In this document: positions 11,634 through 35,511 of the stretch, piece by piece | How the letters are laid out: the number at the start of each line of letters is the position of its first letter | Position numbering within the stretch: the stretch's first letter is position 1 | Origin: a virus | Taxonomy: Duplodnaviria; Caudoviricetes | Virus record (IMG/VR): IMGVR_UViG_3300031949_001696 | Length of the DNA stretch: 64,000 nucleotides | Strand: one strand, 5' to 3' | Notes under the pieces: model-generated | Seen by the model: only the letters and a program-made list of their open reading frames with translations | What the model was told of the DNA's origin: nothing | Database searches by the model: none | Translations under genes and position numbers: made by a program

Positions 11634-14600
11634 CAACCGCCGCCCACTATCACGTGTGGTGTCTGTCGTGGGACGACGAGGAGGAGTACGGATCCGACGT
11701 CGTCGGCTACGACATCTTCTGCCACGACTTCAAGACCGAGAAGCGCGGCATCGTCTACGTCCCGAGCACCACGCTCTACGACGCGAAGGCTGCGGCGGAG
11801 GCATACGCCGACTACGCGTATAGACAACGCGACGGCTGGGAGTCGACCTGGCCGCTCGTGTTCCGCGTCCGTGGCTCGGATGGACAGGTCACAGACTTCG
11901 ATGTCGACTGCCAGCACGTCCCCGAGTTTTCTGCGTCGCCGCTCGAACGACCTGCCGACCTGTGCGCCGACTCATGCGAGCGCTGCGATGCTACGTGCCG
12001 ACAAGTCGAGGACGCCGTGCGTCGGGTCCCGTGCCCGAAGCACGGCACCACGCGCTGGCAGCGCGAGCTCGACGCGATCGCTGCGGGAGAGGCTCTGTGA
12101 AGCTGACGAAGGACATGACGAGGGGAGAGCGTGCGAAGACGGTACTCTTGCTCCGCTGCGCTGCCGAGGTCGCTGTCACGGGTGATCACGTCCTCGGGCC
12201 CAGTCGGCACACCGCACCGCGCCTGGGTCTCGACAAGCACGTGTGCGCTCTCGCGACTCGGGCCGTGAGGTACGTCGCGAGGGAGACGGGACGAGATCCC
12301 GACGCCGCAAACGATCTCGACGAGTACGTCAGCGTCGTGCTCGAAGCGGCGCAGTGCATCGAGGAGAGATCGTGGCCATGAAGAAGTCGAAGAAGATGAA
12401 GCCACGCCCCCTCGCGCCCAAGCAGCGCGAGGTGCTCGCTCGCTCCGCCGTCGGCGAAGATCGCCAGCTGCCCGCGCGCTACGATCCGGGACCGCCGCCG
12501 TTCATGCGACCGGCGATGCGCTGGTTCGTGCCGCCCGGGCTCGTGGTCCCTAGTGGATCGGTCGAGTATCAGGCTGCGCGAGCGCTAGCCGCGCGAGGGC
12601 TGCTCAAGCTTGGCAGTGTTCCGCCGTCGCCCGAGCTGCCGTACGGTCAGGGTGGGTACCTCATCACGAAGAAAGGAAAGTCGGCACTTCGATGAAGAGC
12701 TTACAGATCGACGGCAAAGTCATGGGCGTCATCCACGCCAAGAAGACCGAGGGTCAGTCGAGGATCTGGCTGACCGCGAAACCCGACGCGACGTGGTGGA
12801 TCGTGGTCGAGGGACCTGATCAGCGGATCCGCGAAGTAGGCTTCGTTCGACCTCCGCAGGAAGCGCGCGCTCGGGACACCTACGCTTCCTTGAGCAAGCC
12901 GCACGTGCTCGAAGCATTCCTGGAGGGGAAGGATTCTTGATGACCACTCCGCGCGAGTTCATTGACGATGAGTTCTCGTTCACCGTCTGGCCGAAGGACG
13001 GATCGGACGACGACGCGCTCGACGTTCACGCGCTAACTCCGAACCAGGCCGCCGAGCTGCGAGCGAAGACCGACTACACCGGCGATCCCGACTGGCGGGC
13101 CAGCTACTGCGTCCGCAACAACTTCACGGGGACGCTCTACGTGATCGACGTCGGTGTCGTTCCGCAGCCCTCGTTCGTGGCGCTCCTCGCGCGCGAGGTG
13201 CCCATACCGGCCGCTACCCACGTGCTGTGGGGAGGCCACGTCTTGTGCGAGGACAAGCGACTGCGCGGCGTCCCACGCGACTGGCCCCAAGATCAGCGCT
13301 GGATCTCGCTCCAGGATGTCGCCGACGGAACCGAGGTTCCAGCAAATCTTCAGTGCGAAGCGTGCTTCGCCAAGGCGCCCGGGCTCGTGGCCGGCATCCG
13401 CCAGATCGGAGTGAAGGCTCGATGAAGAAGGTCGCGAGGACCGCACGACTCGTCGTCGTCGAGAACTGTGTCGGCTGTCCGTTCTCGTACGAGTGCGACA
13501 ACGAATGGACGTGCACGACCGCGGAAGACGACGATGGTCATTACAAGACGATCATGCGTACGCAGAAGCGCCGCGGCGGACCGTGGCTGCCGCCACCGAA
13601 GTGGTGTCCCCTGCGCGCCGAGATCGTCGTCGTTACTCTCGGAGAAAAGGCAAGATCATGAAAACCGTCGACGTCGAGTGCTCCTGCTACGGCTGCACGA
13701 TCAAGCGCCAGCGCTTGGGCATCGTTCCGCCCGATCGCTCCGCCGAGCCGTGTCAACCACCGGGCGCATGCGCGAGCCACGGCCAGTGCTGGACCCACAG
13801 TGAGTGGGTCGATGAGGCGCGCTGTGATCCTCCGAACGCGTGCGTCACTGGATCGCACTGCGCGACGCATGCTGCACGCAAAGAGGTGTCGTGACCGAGT
13901 CGTACTCGCTACTCGACGACAACGACGGTCGTTGTGAGCAATGCAACGACCCGAAGACTGTCGAGCAAGTCCAACAGACGTATCCGATCAAGCCGCGGGG
14001 TGATTTGCAATGGGGGACGCTGTGGCTCTGTCCGCTTTGTCTGGCCAAGGCCAAGCTCCGCGATCAGGACAAGAATATCCCGGCGATCGCGAGCGCGACG
14101 CGGGGTGAGACCAAGCCACTTGTCCTCCAGGATGCAGGCTGGCGCGATGTCGCCGCCGACTTTCTCCGAATTGGCCGACTCAGCGAGGCCGTCGATCTCA
14201 TCCACCGCCACCTGAGCGATGGTTGGCTTAAGCTCGTGCCCGGAGACTTCATCTCTTTCGACGAGCAGGGCGTCTCTACGACGTTGAGAAACGACGGCCA
14301 GGTTACGGCGCGCATCAAGCTCGTCGTTCTTCATGACCTTCGGGACCCGATCACAGATGCGATTGCGGAAAGCAGGCCGCGTTATGAGTAATCCATTCTC
14401 CTGGTACCGCATGCTGTACTGGCGGTTCCGCTGGCACGTCTTCCCGCGTCGGCGCTACACCACGCGCTGTCAATACTGCGCCGCGATCACCGGCCGCACG
14501 ATGCACGTGTGGGCGACCGAAGACGTGTGCGCGAGCTGCGCCGCACCACTTCTGGAAATGGAGAGCGTGAACGGATGACCTACGATCAAATGCTCGACCA

Positions 14601-15164
14601 CTGCAAGAAGCTGCTCGCGGCGAATCAGCACGCGTACATCGATCCAGACACGCTCGCGATGGCCAAGTTCATCGTCGACACGCTCGGGGTGGTGTTCCCG
14701 TGCGGCTTCCCTGAGCCTCGCGTCGGAACCGCGCCTGACGGCAGCACGAACGTGATGATCGAGGACATCGTGTTCGGCACGCGTGACGAGGCTCTCGGTA
14801 TCGCCGTAGCGATCATTCGCCATGCTCTTGAGCTACCAGAGAACTAACCATGCTTATCCGGTTGACACCCAAGGACTGCAATGAAGACCAGATGGCAAGA
14901 CGGCAAGCGCTTCACCGTCCATGTTGAAGACTACAACGGGCATCGTTTTGAAGCGGTCGCCCGTGTTGTCGACGCTTTCAAGATCGGCAACGCAATCCGC
15001 GCGCAGTTGGAACTAGAGACTCCGTGCCCGCATGGAAACTGCTTCATCGGACGTGTGCGCGTAATGTCGCGACCCTCGCAGAGAGCGCATCCCATTCGAG
15101 TGCTTCGTAACGGGTGACAAACGGATAGGCACGGAACTAACTATCCACGACAAGGAGATCCGAC

Positions 15165-21034: not shown

Positions 21035-24000
21035 AGAAGACACATTGGCTGTACGGACGCGGTCCCGACAAGATTCTCGACTTCAAGAAAGAGATCGACG
21101 AGGAGAGTGATTGCTCGAAGTGTATCCATCGCGAGGTGTGCAGCTTCGACATGAGCAAGCGATGCGAGAACTATACGTGGGGGACGTCCGAACATGCGTC
21201 GACGAGCTGTCACAGCTGCTCGCGTAGGTTCACGCGTTTCGACGAGCACAAGGTTCCCTGCTTCACGTGTCCTTGGTTCGAGGCGCGAAAAGAGGATGCG
21301 GTGGCCAAAGACGGTGCACAGTGACAGAGCAGGTGTTGCTCCGTGAGCGGCTCGCCGCCATCGCTCGTCGCGGTCGTGTTCCGCTCGCCAGGGTCGTCGA
21401 GGAGCACTTCGAACGATCCGCGATCCGCGAGTATCTCGGCGAGCTGCCGCGCGAAGAGGCGGAGGCCGCGGCGGTGGACGACACGCGCGACGTGCTGGGG
21501 GTGCCTCGGTGAGCGATCAGCCACAGCCCCAGGTGGAGCTGGTCGGGCGTCAGTTCCGCCTGCGCCGCGATCACCACCCCAAGACGCGCGGACGCATCGC
21601 TGTCGTCCTGGATGTCCGCCCATCGCGTAGCACGGGCTGCGGTGTCCGCCTGACGTATCGCTACGAGGACTCTCCTCCGAAGGCGACGCGCCGAGTCTCG
21701 CAGCGCTGGTTTCTGGAGAGCTTCACGCCGATCGTTGAAACAATCGACGAAACGCCCGTGGAGGCACAGTGACTGCCCGTGGTCCCGGATCGAAGACGGT
21801 GCCGCGCCCACGCAGCAAGAAGAGCGAGCTGGACGGGCCCATGCGCGACGTGGTCTACATCTTCGAGGGCGAGGGCAATCGCGGCGGCGGACACTGGCGT
21901 CTCGTCCTCGAGTGCGGGCACTTCGTCGCACGCAAGCGCTACGTGCCTCGGAAGGACACGGCGCTGGTGCACATGATGTTCCGGCCCTTGTCCGAGAAGC
22001 TCGCGCCCAAGCGCGTGCAGTGCCACTACTGCGGATCTGGTTCTCCGAAGCAAGATCCGTGGATCATGGTCAAGGCGCTCGGTGGAGAGGTACCGTGAAG
22101 ATCTTGACAGAGCTGACGCCGTCCGGTGACCTCGTAATTAAGAACTACTACGGCGGCATCACCCAGGATGTGCTGCGTGTCGAGCATTTCCTCGTCGGTG
22201 ATCTCATCCAATCCCTACGCTCGACGCTGTCGGATCGTTATCAGGAATCGATCGAGCACACGAAGCTCGCGCTCGCGTCGTCCCTGCGCCCCGATGTCCT
22301 GGCGACCGTCCGGGACGCGTTCTTGAGCGGTAATGACGTCGAGGCCCTCGCGTTGCTCTCGCACGAGCTGGGGCTCGTCAAAGTCGCATCGCCGCACCCG
22401 GAGTACCGACCGCTCCAGGTCGGTGATCCCGTCGTCGTGATCGCCTACGGCAGGATCCGCAGCTTGGCTGCCGTCGTGAACATCGACGACACGACCCTCT
22501 GTCGCGCACCCTATGTCATCGGACTGTTCAGCGGTGGCCTCGGATACGACGGTCCCAACTGGGATCCTGGTGCCGACGCGTCGGACTACCGCAGCTTCGA
22601 CGCGATGGCCGACGAGGTTCGCTACTGCGATCCACCAGCGCACCTCGAAGAGCGCGCCCGTAAGGACGACGAGGAGGATCCGCGACCATGAAGATTGGGG
22701 TCTATGTCACCGTCGATCATTTCGGCAAGGCGCCGCTGGCCTCACGCCCGCTCTGTCAGGGCTGCACGCCACCTTCCGTCGACGGGCGATCGGAGTCCGC
22801 GATCGTCCCTGAGCGTGCCGAGTACCAGGTCGTCGGCGCCTCGGGCACCCTCGCGCTCTGCCGCGACTGCGCGATCCACGCGATCAAGTCGCTCGCCGCG
22901 CGCTTCATGCTGTTCGACCCGAGCGCGACGCGCGATCTCATGAGCTTCTTCGCGGCCGAAGCGGGCAAGAAGCGACCCGCTGCCCGCAAGAAGCGACGCG
23001 CGCCCAAGCGCGTGATCGACGTCGCCGCGCCGCTCCTCCTGGAAGAGAAGAAAAGGTCCTCGTGACCATGGACCTCGCCGTCCTCCGCGATCGCCTACGC
23101 GCGGAGCTGTCCCAGCTCACGTACGAGATGGTGGAGCTGATGCACCCAGAGACCCGTGCTCAGCACGCCGCGCTGTCGATCGAGTCGTCCGAGCGCGTGA
23201 AGGACCACGTCTATCGGATGACGATCGCGGTCATCGACGGCGAGGTCAACTTCTTCGTGCACGTGCACGGCGCCAGCAAGGACTTCACCACGCAGGGAAC
23301 GCAGCGCTTTCGCAAGGTATGCACGAGTCTCGACGAGGTGTTCACCATCGTGCGCAGCTGCTGGACGGGAAGGGCGCCCTCGTGAACCTCCCGGCCGCTC
23401 TCCGCAAGGCGCTCGCCGTCGTCCGCGACGAGAAGCGCGCGGCGTACCTTCAGAGTTCCTCATCGCGCTACCGGTTGATCCCGGAGCAGCACCACCGGTT
23501 CGGAGTCGACGACAGCCTTTGCGACAAGTGGAGCCGCGCGTGATGCCCAAGATTTTCGCGCGCAGGTGCCACGCGACGTGGCTGCTCGTGAACGGACGTG
23601 CTGCGCTGGGCACGATCGGACTTGCGGTGCTCACTTTCGGTGGCCGGAAGTGAGCTGCCCGCGCGGCCCGCGCACCATTATCACCGAGAGAGATGTGCAC
23701 CGCATGGCCCAACGCTACCGGATCGCCATGAAGAAGACGAACAGACAACTCGACGCGGAGAGCCCGATGACACTACCGAAGAAAGAAGCGGAAGCTGCGA
23801 CGGCCGATGACCTCTCGCTCGAGCAGCTAACGGACCTGGTGGGCGAGGCAAGTGGCTGGAACGACCGCGCGAACATCACGTTCCGGCGCGAAATCGATCG
23901 GTCCAGGGTGCCGCACCGATCCTACGTCGCGGTGAGCGTCGAGATCTGCGGCGGCAAGGCGTCGGTGAGTGCGGGCGGTGCTGATCATCGTAAGGCGCTC

Positions 24001-29579: not shown

Positions 29580-32500
29580 ATTTCGGTCGTTAGCAGGCAT
29601 GTTCACGTTTTTTGCCGACGTGTCGATCCCAGCCCACGTCTCCGTCTCGGCCGTCAACCAAACCGAGCAAGTAGTCTCGGCCGTCAACCAACCGAGCAAG
29701 CACGATCACACGCCGACGAAACGCAACAACGGCGACGTGAGGCAGTCTCGGCCGTCAACCGACCGAGCAAGTACGATCACGTAGGCTGTCGGCGTGTCGG
29801 CGTGCAGCTCGGCGAGCTGCAACCGTCTCGGTCGTCAACCAACCGAGCAAGCACGATCACCTCAACCACGATCGCGTCAGCCGCGACGCGACGACGCGAC
29901 GCTAGTCTCGGTCGGTCGTCAACCAACCGAGCAAGTATCACCCGCCAAGGATCTGGCTGACCTCGCGCTCTGTTGGGAGTCTCGGTCGTCAACCAACCGA
30001 GCAAGCACGATCACTTTTCACTTTGGTCCTTGATCAATCACGAAGCTCTTTGTCAGAGTCTCGGTCGTCAACCAACCGAGCAAGCACGATCACACCAGGC
30101 TCCAGGCTCGGTGATCAACCTCAGCGAGCGCTCCACGTCTCGGTTGTCAACCAACCGAGCAAGTACGATCACAAGGGGCATGCGCCGCTCTCGCTCGAGC
30201 TGCTCAAGGTCTCGGTCGTCAACCAACCGAGCAAGTACGATCACAAGGGGCATGCGCCGCTCTCGCTCGAGCTGCTCAAGGTCTCGGTCGTCAACCAACC
30301 GAGCAAGTACGATCACCGTCTACCCTCGGTGCGTTGCTGCGCGACTTGCCGGTCTCGGTCGTCAACCAACCGAGCAAGTACGATCACATGACGTAACTGT
30401 GGACCCAACAACCTAGTCCGGGTCTCGGCCGTCAACCAACCGAGCAAGTACGATCACATCGCTCGTCGGGTGCTAACCTCCTAGCAAAGGGGAGTCTCGG
30501 TCGTCAACCAACCGAGCAAGTACGATCACACGATCCTCAAGGGCGACAACCGCGCCATGACGAAGTCTCGGTCGTCAACCAACCGAGCAAGTACGATCAC
30601 AGACCGAGGCTTCGTTGCAATTGCGGCGTGACCTCCGGTCTCGGTCGTCAAGTACGATCACCCATGTACCGCCCGCACGAGCACGGTGACGGCGAGGAGT
30701 TTTTCCACGTCTCGGTCGTCAACCAACCGAGCAAGTACGATCACGTTCCGTACGCGCTCTTGCGGTCAGCGGTGTCACTGTCTCGGTCGTCAACCAACCG
30801 AGCAAGTACGATCACGAGACCACTGCGTTTCCGCTCGTCGAGGATGCTTTCGTCTCGGTTGTCAACCAACCGAGCAAGTACGATCACTTTTGGTTTCCTC
30901 GTCACAGACTGCGTAGACACTGTCTCGGTCGTCAACCAACCGAGCAAGTACGATCACGCGCAGCGGTGGGGCGGGAAGCTGCCGTACGACGAGTCTCGGT
31001 CGTCAACCAACCGAGCAAGTACGATTACATGGGGCATGCGCCGCTCACAGCTGCGCGCGCTCGTCGAAGCGAAGAACTACGCCCTGTCTCGGTCGTCAAC
31101 CAACCGAGCAAGTACGATCACACAGGAGTCGGCCCAGTGTAGACCCTGGCGGATGGTCGTCTCGGTCGTCAACCAACCGAGCAAGTACGATCACACGCTC
31201 GCGAGCGCGTCAATCGCCGCCGAATGCGTGCAGGGTCTCGGTCGTCAACCAACCGAGCAAGTACGATCACGTGCCGCCTGATACGGGGCCCGCTCGTCGC
31301 GCTTGTCTCGGTCGTCAACCAACCGAGCAAGTACGATCACCCAAGTCCGCCACCTCCAACTGCCGCACGAGGTCCACGTCTCGGTCGTCAACCAACCGAG
31401 CAAGTACGATCACCAGCATCGTGGGCGTCGACGGCGCGACCGCTCACTGGTCTCGGTCGTCAACCAACCGAGCAAGTACGATCACGCTGGACTTGCGCGA
31501 TCCCGCCGTTCGTGTCCGCGAGTCTCGGTCGTCAACCAACCGAGCAAGTACGATCACCTGGCGGGCAGAGACACCTCTGCCTTGGAGGTCTGGTCTCGGT
31601 CGTCAACCAACCGAGCAAGTACGATCACCGCCGATGCCAAGCGCGCGAGCGACAGAACTCGTCGTGTCTCAGTCGTCAACCAACCGAGCAAGTACGATCA
31701 CCGCGCTCTGCCTGCTGCTGCGCAAGCGAATGACTGTGTCTCGGTCGTCAACCAACCGAGCAAGTACGATCACCTGGCGTCGGTCGGTGCCGCCGCCGAG
31801 GAACCGATCGAGTCTCGGTCGTCAACCAACCGAGCAAGTACGATCACTGCGCGAATACCAAACGCGCATGCACGCCCTGTGTGTGTCTCGGTCGTCAACC
31901 AACCGAGCAAGTACGATCACGCGTCGGTGCCTCGGGCGACGATCCGCGGCTCACCTTGTCTCGGTCGTCAACCAACCGAGCAAGTACGATCACCCGGGTG
32001 CAACGCCACGGAGAGTGGACAAGTGTCTTGTCTCGGTCGTCAACCAACCGAGCAAGTACGATCACCTTCTGCTGTCGTCTTGGCCCGGGAACACCATGCC
32101 GGTCTCGGTCGTCAACCAACCGAGCAAGTACGATCACGCTCGTGCGCCTGCGATAAGACGCCTCTCGTACGCAGTCTCGGTCGTCAACCAACCGAGCAAG
32201 TACGATCACCCAGCCGGATTGAGAGTCAGAAAGCTGACCCTGAAGTCTCGGTCGTCAACCAACCGAGCAAGTACGATCACAATCACGGTTACAACTGGGT
32301 CAGCCCGCGTACGATAGTCTCGGTCGTCAACCAACCGAGCAAGTACGATCACCACGGGGTGGGTGACGTCGATACTCGCCGCGCTGGTGGTCTCGGTCGT
32401 CAACCAACCAACCGAGCAAGTACGATCACATTCGGCATCAACCTGCCGACGCTGCAAGAAGCCGAGTCTCGGTCGTCAACCAACCGAGCAAGTACGATCA

Positions 32501-33146
32501 CACCGCCCGGTCGTCTCGTACCGCACCGCTAGATCGTGTCTCGGTCGTCAACCAACCGAGCAAGTACGATCACGACCGAAGACGTTGGTGGGTACCTTCG
32601 CGTCGCGTAGTCTCGGTCGTCAACCAACCGAGCAAGTACGATCACAACCGATGCGCTGCGGATCCACGAGGGCTTTCGCGAGTCTCGGTCGTCAACCAAC
32701 CGAGCAAGTACGATCACACCCGCACACGGGCGAAGATGTCGGCGAGGTACTGGTCTCGGTCGTCAACCAACCGAGCAAGTACGATCACTCGCAATCTCGT
32801 CGCCAGCGAGGCGCCGTTTTCCTGTCTCGGTCGTCAACCAACCGAGCAAGTACGATCACTTCGCGCTGCTGTGGCGTTCGGGTCGCTCGCAGCGTCTCGG
32901 TCGTCAACCAACCGAGCAAGTACGATCACGCAACGTCACGCCTTCGCCGGGCGGCGGTTGGGACGTTGTCTCGGTCGTCAACCAACCGAGCAAGTACGAT
33001 CACGCTGGCGGGCAGAGACACCTCTGCCTTGGAAATCTGGTCTCGGTCGTCAACCAACCGAGCAAGTACGATCACCCCTCCATGCTCGTGGCCGCGTCCT
33101 CGACCTCCGGGTCTCGGTCGTCAACCAACCGAGCAAGTACGATCAC
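29580..33146 (-). CRISPR. CRISPR array of ~50 repeats and ~48 spacers; 36-nt repeat GTGATCGTACTTGCTCGGTTGGTTGACGACCGAGAC (crRNA sense)
   Basis: Manual count gave 49 recognisable copies of GTCTCGGTCGTCAACCAACCGAGCAAGTACGATCAC from 29644 to 33146, plus a very degenerate copy at 29580-29606. Spacers are mostly 34-38 nt. Degeneration at the left end and the cas gene at the right end indicate minus-strand transcription. The repeat forms a 3' hairpin CTCGGTTG-GTTGA-CGACCGAG. Confidence 0.98.
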
Positions 33147-33210
33147 CGTCTTCAACTATTCAGTTGTCATCTCGCAATCTTATACAGCTCGATCGCGAGC
33201 ACCTACCGTC
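33147..33210 (-). promoter_or_regulatory. Short CRISPR leader
   Basis: 64 bp of lower GC between the effector stop and the first repeat; -10-like TATAAGAT (33177-33184) and a small inverted repeat CAACT-N4-AGTTG. Confidence 0.6.
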
Positions 33211-35511
33211 TCAGCGTTGTTTGCCGAGCGCAGCAACGGCGTTAGATCCCGCAACCGAGCGCGATGCCTTCGGTTTGACGGGCGCAAGTACCTGCGGGGC
33301 AGGTGTCGTCGGCACGGGCGGCACCGGTCCGTTCGAGTGACCGTGTCGATGCAGGAGGTTGCGGCACGCGTTCGCGTCCTGATCCCAGGTCTGACTGCAC
33401 GACGAGCAGGTGTGCTCGATCGCGGCTTTCGCGTCGAACACCTCGATCGAAGTGCACCACGCGCATTCGCGCGTCGAGTCCGCGGTCTCCTCGACCTCGA
33501 CGCGGGCACCGCGCTTGGGGGCGGCTTTGATGATCTCGGCGCGCAGCTCGCCCGGCGCGGCCAGCCGGCTCATCCGGCGTTGCTCTCGGCCCTCGGACGG
33601 GTCGCCGTCCTCGGGCTCTGGGCGCTCCCAGCCGTCGATTTCAGTTAGCTTCATCGTACCCCCGACCGATCCGCCGCCACCGCCCGCGTGGTCCGGGGAT
33701 CGGTTCGCACCGCCCTCAATCAAGATCATCGCGTAGGTATTCGTCAGCTCGGCGGCAAGCACGCGCCACGTCTCGCGACGGTGGGCGATCAGCCGATCGC
33801 GCTGGTGCTCCTGCCAGTTCTGGAGGTGGCGATCATGGCGCGCCCACGCCTGGAGTGCGGCGAGGATCTCGCTGTCGCCGGTGATCCTGTTCGCCTTCGA
33901 GCTGAAATCCGACGGGTTGCACTGCTTCTTCCCCGCAGCGCGCGCGGTACGCCAGGCATCCCAGTCGATCCCGGTCCACGCGTCGACGAGTGCCTGGAGC
34001 TTGCGCGGCGCGCGCCACTGCGCGAGGCCGGCGAGGCGATCTGTCAGGCCTGACGGCGTCTCCCGGTCGCGCAGCCACGTGACCAGCCGATCGCGTGCGG
34101 TCTCGAATTCCTTGTCGCGGGTTCCCGCCAGGTCGTAGACCTTGTCCATACCGAAGAGGAGCTTGTTCGGCACGCGGATCTCGCGCTCGCGCCCCGTGTC
34201 GTCGACGAGATAGCCGACGCGTAGGCCGATCTGGTTACCCTCGTCGTCGAACAGCCGCCGCCAGCTCAGGTCGATCGCGCATGCGCCCGTGCCGATCGCG
34301 TCCGGGCACGCGCGGAAGATCTCGCTCTCGATCGTGACCTGAAACCGCCACTCGTAGTGGCGGCCAACGCGCTTGCGCACGACGTACGCCCATTTGATCA
34401 CGGCGTCCTTCGGCAGTGGCCGATGAAGAGTGACCGGAAAGCGCGCGAAGATCGGTGATCGATCTGGGTTAGAGCCGACGCGGAGGTCGACGTATGTCCG
34501 TGCCGCGTGACGCCGTAGGTTGCGCGAGAGTTGAGGGACAGCTGCCCACGCCTCCTCTCGTGGCGGATGTTTAACTGCGCGGGAGCCGGGATCTTGCCGC
34601 GACAAGAGCTCGGGGACGGTGTCTCGATCGTCATCGTCACCTGATCGAGCAAAGATTTCGACTTCTGGACGCGGATGTTTGTCGCTCGCTCCAGGAGCAT
34701 GGATGCGAAGACGAGGATCCATGCACGAGAATGCCTCACGCACCGTCATGCCGCCGATGACCTGCGTACCGATCGATCCGGTACCGTCGCAGCGCTTGAA
34801 GTGCGGCGGATGCTTGGTCGACGCCGCGGCCTGCTTGAGCGCGGTTTCGACGCGGTCGTAGGTCCCGGTGCGCAGTCCTCGCGCGGAGTAGTCTGCACGG
34901 GAGGCGAGCCGCTTGGCGTGGGCTTGATCCCTCGCGTTCTGGTAACCCGCCGCGAGGGCGAGATCTGGTTCTACGGATTTGTGCAGTGCCGCGAACAACG
35001 TGCGCTTGGCCGCACTTAACTCGGCCTTGATCCGTTCGTGATCCTCCTTGGAGATCTCCGGATCCTTGAGGCGGCGCATCCTCGGACCGATCTCGGGATG
35101 CGCGAGAAGCACGTCTTGGAGATGCGCTCCTTGCGCGCGCTTCGCCTCGCGCAGATCGGACGCGAACAGCGCGCGAAGCTCCTTGGCGGCAGCGAGGCGG
35201 AGACGGTGCTCGGTCAGGTCGGGATCTGCCACGCCCGACTTCGCGGCGCGGAGGTCCTCGTACGCGTTTCCGACGTCGCCGTCCGCGCCCTCGTAGAGCT
35301 GGAGTGCCTTGCCGATGATCGGATGATCGAGTTGGACGCCGCGGAAGTGCTCTCGAAGGCGGATCTCGATCTCGACGAGGGCGTTGCGGTACTGCCCCGC
35401 GAGCCAGAACTGATCTTCGACGCGCTTGCCCTCGGTGATCGGAGGCAGGCAGCGGTACGAGTAGATCCGGGTGGGAACGTCGGATGTCTTCTTGCGGCGG
35501 GCGCGTGGCAT
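33211..35511 (-). CDS. cas12m: Type V CRISPR effector, Cas12m (V-M/V-U1)-like, ~766 aa
   Basis: Motifs in Cas12m order: QFWLAGQYRNALVEIE, FKRCDGTGSIGTQV, RVGS...FPVTLHRPLP, AIDLSWR (RuvC-I), QWRAPRKL, ILIE (RuvC-II), AAPGELR, CAWC...CSSC, WDQDANA (RuvC-III). Directly abuts the array. Start chosen at ATG 35511; alternatives are 35517 and 35553. Subtype is assigned from recalled motifs, not from a search. Confidence 0.85.
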   Translation of the reverse strand: MPRARRKKTSDVPTRIYSYRCLPPITEGKRVEDQFWLAGQYRNALVEIEIRLREHFRGVQLDHPIIGKALQLYEGADGDVGNAYEDLRAAKSGVADPDLTEHRLRLAAAKELRALFASDLREAKRAQGAHLQDVLLAHPEIGPRMRRLKDPEISKEDHERIKAELSAAKRTLFAALHKSVEPDLALAAGYQNARDQAHAKRLASRADYSARGLRTGTYDRVETALKQAAASTKHPPHFKRCDGTGSIGTQVIGGMTVREAFSCMDPRLRIHAPGASDKHPRPEVEIFARSGDDDDRDTVPELLSRQDPGSRAVKHPPREEAWAAVPQLSRNLRRHAARTYVDLRVGSNPDRSPIFARFPVTLHRPLPKDAVIKWAYVVRKRVGRHYEWRFQVTIESEIFRACPDAIGTGACAIDLSWRRLFDDEGNQIGLRVGYLVDDTGREREIRVPNKLLFGMDKVYDLAGTRDKEFETARDRLVTWLRDRETPSGLTDRLAGLAQWRAPRKLQALVDAWTGIDWDAWRTARAAGKKQCNPSDFSSKANRITGDSEILAALQAWARHDRHLQNWQEHQRDRLIAHRRETWRVLAAELTNTYAMILIEGGANRSPDHAGGGGGSVGGTMKLTEIDGWERPEPEDGDPSEGREQRRMSRLAAPGELRAEIIKAAPKRGARVEVEETADSTRECAWCTSIEVFDAKAAIEHTCSSCSQTWDQDANACRNLLHRHGHSNGPVPPVPTTPAPQVLAPVKPKASRSVAGSNAVAALGKQR

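What the first reader, a model, noticed from the sequence alone, without database searches (positions are those of the whole stretch)
31558..33039. Old and new spacers against the same site differ only at seed positions 5-6
Seen, in crRNA sense: the 22nd spacer from the leader (31558-31592) is CAGACCTCCAAGGCAGAGGTGTCTCTGCCCGCCAG. The 2nd spacer (33004-33039) is CAGATTTCCAAGGCAGAGGTGTCTCTGCCCGCCAGC. They share the 5' end, differ in length (35 vs 36 nt) and differ CC/TT at positions 5-6. Established: in type V systems the 5' spacer end is the PAM-proximal seed. Inference: the site was independently re-acquired after the target escaped by seed mutation, implying a fixed PAM, ongoing adaptation and real selection by this system.
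Basis: partly seen in the sequence, partly recalled or inferred. Interest (0 to 1): 0.82.

Follow-up and report, generated by a model that had tools for sequence, protein, structure and literature searches.

The report
Two allele-specific spacers against one site
A phage-borne Cas12m-type CRISPR array holds an old and a new spacer against the same unknown target site that differ only at guide positions 5-6 and by one base in length, which looks like two separate captures of two target variants, but the target was not found, so "escape then re-capture" stays unproven.

Summary
Spacer 2 (33004-33039) and spacer 22 (31558-31592) of a 47-unit minus-strand array share their 5' end. They differ by TT versus CC at positions 5-6 and by one extra 3' base. 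No other non-adjacent spacer pair comes close.

The effector next to the array is an enlarged Cas12m (type V-M) protein. The element looks like a 333-kb huge phage. I found no cas1, cas2 or cas4 among the 40 ORFs tested within about 15-20 kb.

Best reading (0.7): two independent captures, anchored at the same 5' PAM-side end, from two variants of one protospacer. A published Cas12m loses all activity with a double mismatch in this region, so each guide probably serves only its own variant.

Intra-array duplication is unlikely. The true duplicate here (spacers 39/40) is adjacent, identical and of equal length.

The "escape, then re-acquisition" story is not shown. No target allele turned up in any phage, plasmid, viral, metagenome or genome collection, or in four sequencing runs. 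Standing variation, array recombination and strain mixing in the assembly all remain possible.

The same pattern was described for Legionella type I-C. Earlier notes of this scan cover this same locus only, not other DNA.

In passing, a relative's spacer matches a rival phage's cas12m gene.

The parts
33004..33039 (-). Spacer 2 (36 nt), the leader-proximal 'new' copy. It carries TT at guide positions 5-6 (33034-33035) and one extra 3' C.
31558..31592 (-). Spacer 22 (35 nt), the 'old' copy. It carries CC at guide positions 5-6 (31587-31588).
33011..33028 (-). Perfect 7-bp hairpin (GGCAGAG-GTGT-CTCTGCC) at guide positions 12-29 of spacer 2. The same hairpin lies at 31564-31581 in spacer 22.
   Evidence: minimum free energy -12.3 kcal/mol for both spacers
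29644..33146 (-). CRISPR array of about 47 units with a 36-nt repeat that ends in an 8-bp hairpin plus AC. Repeats 1-29 are almost invariant. The trailer units (about 29644-30136) are decayed, with 43-48-nt spacers.
33147..33210 (-). Leader between the effector stop codon and repeat 1. It holds the motif TGACAACTGAATAG, which is kept (as TTGAMAACTGAATA) in relatives whose effectors are only 60-92% identical.
33211..35511 (-). Effector gene of 766 aa counted from the ATG at 35511 (the ORF is open to 35553). It is an enlarged Cas12m-family protein with RuvC motifs AIDLSW / LIEG / WDQDAN (D-E-D) and a C-terminal zinc finger.
30173..30280 (-). Spacers 39 and 40: an adjacent, 36/36 identical tandem duplicate. 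It serves as the internal control for what intra-array duplication looks like here.
31029..31085 (-). Spacer 29 (57 nt). Its last roughly 18 nt match the last 18 nt of spacers 39/40 and end at the same point, so it is a second case of related sites captured more than once.

Best explanation
Spacers 2 and 22 are two separate captures of the same protospacer from two sequence variants of one target, probably a rival high-GC phage. Each capture was cut at the same PAM-side (5') end, with the usual 1-nt slack at the far end, and inserted at the leader at different times. The CC version is older and the TT version recent. The effector is a Cas12m-type DNA binder whose R-loop starts at the 5' end of the guide, so a double mismatch at positions 5-6 should make each guide work only on its own variant. 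Together the two guides cover both variants. Shown: the sequences, their positions, the array polarity, the effector family, and the lack of any sign of duplication. Inferred: the 5' PAM, allele specificity (taken from a homologue), and the nature of the target. Not decided: whether the TT variant arose as an escape from the CC guide or was simply a co-circulating strain.
For: (1) Identity is far beyond chance, with the same 5' end and a 3' end that differs by 1 nt. Spacer lengths in this array run from 34 to 40 nt with a mode of 36, so 35 versus 36 is normal capture slack. (2) The pair does not look like a duplication. The copies are 20 units apart, their neighbours are unrelated, and they differ by two substitutions and one length change. 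Meanwhile 33 leader-side repeats (1188 nt) carry only 3 substitutions and 1 insertion. The one real duplicate (39/40) is adjacent and 36/36 identical. (3) Polarity is supported by the conserved leader beside the effector gene, near-invariant repeats at that end and decayed ones at the far end. (4) Orientation is supported because the repeat folds at -13.2 kcal/mol on the minus strand against -7.8 on the plus strand. Repeat variants keep the stem through G-U pairs only on the minus strand, and relatives show compensatory stem changes. (5) The effector is a Cas12m: PADLOC Cas12u1 at 9.7e-73 and PDB Cas12m 23vw at 2e-51. (6) In Cas12m the guide starts right after the repeat, next to a 5' PAM, and the R-loop grows from there (PMC10442227). 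In PmCas12m, single mismatches within 12 nt or double mismatches within 14 nt of the PAM abolish activity. (7) A relative's spacer (L010 14104-14140) matches a rival phage's cas12m gene (L005 11805-11838) at 34/34 from its 5' end, with mismatches only at the 3' end. L010's own gene differs at positions 5-7 and 11-12. This shows that this array family targets related phages and that its matches are 5'-anchored. (8) Spacer GC is 64%, close to the element's 63%.
Against: No protospacer for either allele was found anywhere, so neither the existence of two target alleles nor a PAM has been observed. No cas1, cas2 or cas4 lies among the 40 ORFs tested within about 15-20 kb, so the capture machinery is unknown. 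CC to TT could be a single tandem mutation, which weakens the count of 'three differences'. The array comes from a metagenome assembly, and its interior is poorly covered in the run that holds its flanks, so the phasing of the two spacers on one molecule is unverified. With only two adjacent differences, their position in the first 6-8 of 35 nt is weak statistical evidence: about 0.03-0.05 if the changes are independent and about 0.2 if they are one event.
Confidence: 0.7

Rival explanations
1. The target first carried CC and was hit by spacer 22. It escaped by a CC-to-TT seed mutation. The same lineage then re-acquired the mutated site as spacer 2. This is a special case of the best explanation with a defined order and cause.
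For: The new copy is leader-proximal and the old copy distal. The differences fall where a Cas12m is least tolerant of mismatches. Re-capture of exactly the same site among thousands of possible sites suggests that few sites are useful to a binding-only effector. The same pattern was read this way in Legionella type I-C (PMC5071653).
Against: No target was found, so which allele is ancestral is unknown. One mismatch would already be enough for escape, so a double change is more than needed. In one plausible reading frame the change is one synonymous change plus Val/Ile, which is typical of ordinary strain variation. Relatives of this phage differ densely from one another at homologous sites, so co-circulating variants are expected anyway.
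Confidence: 0.3
2. Intra-array duplication of one spacer-repeat unit, followed by point mutation (CC to TT or the reverse) and a 1-nt indel at the spacer-repeat junction.
For: Duplication does occur in this array (spacers 39/40). Slippage-type changes are common here: a 4-nt insertion in repeat 11, a truncated repeat in unit 34, and short tandem duplications in the trailer spacers. CC to TT may be a single event.
Against: The copies are 20 units apart and no neighbouring unit is co-duplicated. One unequal crossover cannot produce that layout. Three differences would have to accumulate while the flanking repeats stayed perfect. The known duplicate is adjacent, identical and of equal length.
Confidence: 0.1
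3. The two spacers were acquired in two different phage lineages and now sit in one array sequence through recombination between arrays, or through a metagenome assembly that merged strains. There would then be no re-acquisition within one lineage.
For: A sister contig (L001) is 100% identical over cas12m nucleotides 100-1500. It then drops to 56-94% identity through the 3' third of the gene, the leader and the array, which holds different spacers. A minor variant of the cas12m 3' end co-exists in run X1 at depth 6 against 37, and other arrays with the same repeat occur in X1, X2 and X4.
Against: There is no change of repeat variant or any other block boundary between units 2 and 22. Each spacer has its own unique neighbours, so a k-mer path through the array is unambiguous unless strains share junctions. 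This rival still requires two independent captures of the same site.
Confidence: 0.15

Closest known systems
Type V-M CRISPR-Cas12m (MmCas12m2, GoCas12m, PmCas12m)
   Same: The effector is homologous. It has a single crRNA-type 36-nt repeat with a 3' hairpin, no adaptation genes beside it, and the guide's 5' end next to the PAM. In characterised members interference works by tight DNA binding and silencing (PMC11013384, PMC10442227).
   Different: This effector has 766 aa against about 577-614 aa, with insertions. It has a D-E-D RuvC triad, as some but not all Cas12m proteins do. It is carried on a phage-like 333-kb element with a very long array. Its PAM, processing and activity are untested, and the single in-family protospacer has the flank TTCGACG rather than TTN.
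Old/new spacer pairs against overlapping LME-1 sites in Legionella pneumophila type I-C (Rao et al. 2016, PMC5071653)
   Same: Two spacers in one array are aimed at the same region. The newer one is thought to restore a match lost to a seed or PAM change. [quoted passage not shown]
   Different: In Legionella the target (LME-1) is known and the mismatches were read against it, and that system has Cas1/2/4 and priming. Here the target is unknown, the system is type V on a phage, and no adaptation genes are seen.
CRISPR-Cas systems encoded by huge phages (Cas12j/CasPhi from my own knowledge; soil huge-phage Cas12 of about 700 aa in PMC11748809)
   Same: These are compact Cas12 genes with an adjacent array, no co-occurring cas genes, spacers aimed at other phages, and a soil origin.
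   Different: The arrays reported there are short (mean 6.8 spacers). This one has about 47, and an allelic spacer pair was not described there.
Tandem spacer duplication by repeat slippage
   Same: It occurs in this very array (spacers 39/40).
   Different: The pair 2/22 is non-adjacent, unequal in length and differs at two bases.

Membership tests
Type V-M (Cas12m) CRISPR-Cas | Effector homologous to Cas12m over the WED/REC/RuvC/TNB domains | tested here: met
   PADLOC Cas12u1 at 9.7e-73. PDB Cas12m 23vw at 2e-51, and Cas12m2 8hhl at 3.5e-16. Pfam detects only the TNB domain.
Type V-M (Cas12m) CRISPR-Cas | Compact size of about 600 aa | tested here: not met
   The protein has 766-780 aa, and relatives have 645-824 aa. 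It is an enlarged branch of the family.
Type V-M (Cas12m) CRISPR-Cas | Adjacent array whose repeat ends in a hairpin next to the spacer, with the crRNA read in the same direction as the effector gene | tested here: met
   (compensatory stem changes in relatives)
Type V-M (Cas12m) CRISPR-Cas | No adaptation genes in the locus | tested here: met
   40 ORFs within about 15-20 kb on either side show no Cas1, Cas2 or Cas4 in Pfam or PADLOC. The other 270 kb of the contig could not be read.
Type V-M (Cas12m) CRISPR-Cas | PAM-dependent dsDNA binding without cleavage | not testable with these tools
   The D-E-D motifs are present. Published D-E-D Cas12m variants also failed to cut (PMC11013384).
Escape followed by re-acquisition (arms-race spacer pair) | Two spacers from the same protospacer, captured independently | tested here: met
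   Same 5' end, 1-nt length difference, non-adjacent, no co-duplicated neighbours. This is an inference from array anatomy.
Escape followed by re-acquisition (arms-race spacer pair) | The newer spacer matches the current target allele and the older one mismatches it in the seed or PAM | tested here: inconclusive
   No protospacer was found in the phage, plasmid, IMG/VR, JGI metagenome or GTDB genome collections, or in four runs.
Escape followed by re-acquisition (arms-race spacer pair) | A conserved PAM beside the protospacer | tested here: inconclusive
   There is only one secure in-family protospacer (L010 spacer on L005, flank TTCGACG), plus one unverified flank from run X2 at spacer 6 (GACGATG).
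Intra-array duplication | Adjacent copies of equal length, or a co-duplicated block | tested here: not met
   Not met for the pair 2/22. Met for the pair 39/40.

The most novel reading that the evidence does not exclude
A huge phage carries a Cas12m-type silencing system with no adaptation genes of its own, yet updates its array in real time. After a rival phage changed two seed bases, the same PAM-anchored site was captured again, presumably with borrowed host Cas1-Cas2. Exact re-use of one site would mean that only a few positions in the rival genome are vulnerable to a binding-only effector. Together with the relative's spacer aimed at a rival's cas12m gene, this would document a CRISPR arms race between phages.
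Probability: 0.25. Interest if true: 0.7.

Novelty: new member of a known kind. Interest (0 to 1): 0.45.

Why it matters
If the pair records escape and re-capture, it would be natural evidence of four things. Cas12m-type binding-only systems would be exerting real selection on their targets. Arrays without their own cas1/cas2 would still be adapting. Capture would be anchored on the PAM side. Guide positions 5-6 would matter in vivo. It would also give a ready-made 2x2 test (two guides, two alleles) of the specificity of an uncharacterised, enlarged Cas12m. As it stands, it is a clean but ordinary kind of array feature whose key prediction, two target alleles beside one PAM, could not be checked.

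Tried and rejected
Target searches for spacers 2/22 all came back empty or at chance level:
- blastn of spacer 22 against phages and plasmids gave only partial chance hits.
- An exact 23-mer found nothing in viral, metagenome or genome contigs.
- Amino-acid-degenerate patterns for both plausible frames found nothing in viral contigs.
- A pattern with N at every third base found nothing in metagenome or genome contigs.
- The 18-mer hairpin core found nothing.
- The 5' 18-mer gave one hit, L004, which matches only those 18 bases in a low-GC contig and is therefore chance.

Whole-array blastn against phages and plasmids also failed. The Gordonia phage Easley hit spans the repeat-spacer junction, so it is not a protospacer, and the other hits are chance level.

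I looked for self or cross targets of all window spacers in the window and in about 170 kb of relatives' DNA. Nothing rose above shuffled controls. IMG/VR record G001 gave noise only. Spacer-encoded peptides compared with 88 Cas12m homologues gave no window spacer hit.

Laying four runs on the locus gave no protospacer for 2/22. Array interior cover in the Logan contigs is too thin to say anything, and a part without cover is not evidence. Loose ends in X2 fall exactly at the edges of spacer 6 and may mark a protospacer, but 35-nt matches with 5 mismatches also occur inside the cas gene, so this is unverified.

An exact search for the repeat in IMG/VR found nothing. The search for related loci in IMG/VR gave only one 43%-identity relative. 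The window's own genome is not held, and the relatives' full contigs are not searchable.

Full report
**What is in the sequence**

On the minus strand a 36-nt repeat recurs about 47 times, from 33146 down to about 29644. Counted from the effector side, spacer 2 is 33004-33039 (36 nt) and spacer 22 is 31558-31592 (35 nt). They are identical at positions 1-35 except positions 5-6 (TT in spacer 2, CC in spacer 22). Spacer 2 ends with one extra C.

This is not chance. In an all-against-all comparison of the spacers the median local score was 6 and the 99th percentile 11, while this pair scored 31. The shared 29-mer occurs nowhere else in the window, and none of 100 shuffles gave a match. Both spacers contain a perfect 7-bp hairpin at positions 12-29, with a folding energy of -12.3 kcal/mol.

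**Context**

Directly upstream of the array lies a 766-aa gene (33211-35511, open to 35553).
- PADLOC scores it as Cas12u1 at 9.7e-73.
- Its best solved relative is a Cas12m (23vw, 2e-51), followed by Cas12m2.
- Pfam and NCBIfam see only the TnpB/Cas12f zinc-finger end.
- The RuvC motifs align as D-E-D.

It is therefore an enlarged member of the type V-M family.

The repeat folds into an 8-bp hairpin followed by AC on the minus strand (-13.2 kcal/mol) and folds poorly on the plus strand (-7.8 kcal/mol). Repeat variants keep the stem through G-U pairs on the minus strand only. Relatives show compensatory stem changes.

Polarity is supported in two ways. A 64-nt leader beside the gene carries a motif that is kept in relatives. 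Repeats 1-29 are near-invariant, while the far end is decayed.

The window belongs to a 332,853-bp JGI contig. Nearby genes are phage-like: an HNH-RNA ligase, a UvrD-type helicase, a collagen-like tail fibre and a Lar homologue. Relatives sit on contigs of 100-461 kb. This is probably a huge phage. None of the 40 ORFs tested within about 15-20 kb of the array matched Cas1, Cas2 or Cas4.

**Duplication or two captures?**

The array contains its own control. Spacers 39 and 40 are adjacent, 36/36 identical and of equal length, which is the signature of repeat slippage.

The pair 2/22 is different in three respects.
- The two copies lie 20 units apart.
- Their neighbours are unrelated. A single unequal crossover would duplicate a whole block, not one unit.
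- They differ by two substitutions and one length change, while 33 leader-side repeats (1188 nt) hold only three substitutions and one insertion.

A shared 5' end with a 1-nt difference at the 3' end is what two captures measured from the same PAM-side end would give. Spacer lengths here range from 34 to 40 nt with a mode of 36. I therefore favour two independent captures of one site from two variants, at 0.7.

**Would the difference matter?**

In Cas12m2 the guide begins right after the repeat, next to a 5' PAM, and an intermediate structure lacks guide positions 13-20. The R-loop therefore grows from the guide's 5' end (PMC10442227).

For PmCas12m, single mismatches within 12 nt or double mismatches within 14 nt of the PAM abolished activity, and 17 nt was the best guide length (bioRxiv 10.64898/2026.03.26.714355). 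By homology, a CC/TT double mismatch at positions 5-6 should make each guide specific to its own allele. This is inference and was not tested on this protein.

**The target**

I could not find the target. Every search was empty or at chance level:
- exact, codon-wobble-tolerant and amino-acid-degenerate patterns in the IMG/VR, JGI metagenome and GTDB genome collections;
- blastn of the spacer and of the whole array against phage and plasmid records;
- searches of the window itself and of about 170 kb of relatives.

Run X1, a soil metagenome, holds the flanks of the array at 100% identity, but the array interior is barely covered.

So the decisive prediction, both alleles beside one 5' flank, is untested. 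The claim that the TT allele arose as an escape from the CC guide is no more than plausible, and I put it at about 0.3.

In one plausible reading frame the change is one synonymous change plus Val/Ile. That would be typical of ordinary strain variation. Homologous sites in related phages differ densely from one another. The statistical weight of two adjacent changes falling in the first 6-8 of 35 positions is small: about 0.03-0.05 if the changes are independent and about 0.2 if they are one event.

**What these arrays aim at**

One secure protospacer turned up among relatives. The last spacer of the L010 array (14104-14140) matches the cas12m gene of the L005-type phage (11805-11838) at 34/34 from its 5' end, on the sense strand. 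It encodes the zinc-finger peptide of that phage's effector exactly.
- The 5' flank of the protospacer is TTCGACG.
- The window's own gene differs from this spacer at positions 3, 4 and 9.
- L010's own gene differs at positions 5-7, 11-12 and others.

This shows that the array family targets rival phages, that its matches are anchored at the guide's 5' end, and that self and non-self differ mainly in the PAM-proximal part. It makes a rival phage the most likely target of spacers 2/22.

**Other routes to the same picture**

A sister contig (L001) is 100% identical to the window over cas12m nucleotides 100-1500. Identity then drops to 56-94% through the 3' third of the gene, the leader and the array, and its spacers are all different. 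A minor variant of that 3' part co-exists in run X1, and other arrays with the same repeat occur in X1, X2 and X4.

The locus therefore also evolves by recombination, and the sample holds several strains. The two spacers might have been captured in different lineages and then joined by recombination or by the assembler (0.15). That reading would still mean two independent captures.

**Comparison with what is known**

Old and new spacers on overlapping sites, with the older one mismatched in the seed or PAM, were described for Legionella type I-C against LME-1. That paper also reports spacers of 'the same or overlapping sequence' within single arrays (PMC5071653). Cas12 genes of about 700 aa with adjacent arrays and no other cas genes are known from soil huge phages (PMC11748809). 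The finding is therefore a new member of a known kind: a tidy natural example in a type V-M-like, phage-borne system.

**Verdict**

Interest is moderate (0.45) until a target is found.

Noticed in passing
L010:14104-14140 versus L005:11805-11838 (also window 33391-33427, minus strand): The last spacer of a related phage's array matches the zinc-finger region of a rival phage's cas12m gene at 34/34 from its 5' end, with the 5' flank TTCGACG. The window's own gene differs at spacer positions 3, 4 and 9, and L010's own gene differs at 8 positions. This looks like phage-against-phage CRISPR aimed at the rival's effector gene.
   Followed up: partly
window 33100-34010 versus L001 6090-7000: The sister contig L001 is 100% identical over cas12m nucleotides 100-1500. 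Identity then drops abruptly to 56-94% through the 3' third of the gene, the leader and the array. This is a recombination breakpoint inside the effector gene. A minor variant of the same part co-exists in run X1.
   Followed up: partly
window 30173-30280 and 31029-31085: Spacers 39 and 40 are identical tandem copies. The 57-nt spacer 29 shares its last roughly 18 nt with them and ends at the same point. Read on the other strand, that shared part begins ATG GGG CAT GCG and may be a gene start.
   Followed up: partly
window 30601-30708, 32390-32429, 29644-30136: Unit 34 holds a repeat with a 12-nt internal deletion. Repeat 11 has a GGTT duplication. The trailer spacers are 43-48 nt long and contain short tandem duplications. 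The same kind of short duplications fills the old ends of relatives' arrays (L005, L010, L001).
   Followed up: no
window 32718-32752 (spacer 6): A contig of run X2 (freshwater metagenome) matches exactly the extent of spacer 6, with non-repeat flanks on both sides. The 5' flank ends GACGATG and an open high-GC3 frame runs through it. It is a possible protospacer, but the number of mismatches is unknown and matches at this level also occur by chance.
   Followed up: no
window 14837-14870 versus L005 1960-1993 and 1709-1731: A 34-nt end of a small cassette in the window recurs, with 2 mismatches and also inverted, between the effector stop codon and the first repeat of another Cas12m locus in a 461-kb relative. 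It looks like a miniature mobile element shared by these phages.
   Followed up: no
L005 1-9900 and 10001-15000; L010 5826-7049: The 461-kb relative carries two Cas12m-like loci with different repeats, one followed by roughly 8 kb of array-like DNA. L010 has an AcrVA2-like gene (PF26125) 2.5 kb from its cas12m gene.
   Followed up: no
window 23062-23385 (+): A 107-aa ORF shows weak similarity (30% over 60 aa, E 0.002; PADLOC Cas12u1 at 0.001) to the N-terminal helical part of Cas12m homologues. This may be only coiled-coil composition.
   Followed up: partly
window 29644-33146: By codon likelihood, 28 of 43 spacers read better as coding on the strand opposite to the crRNA and 15 on the same strand. 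This is a weak bias. Mean spacer GC is 64%.
   Followed up: yes
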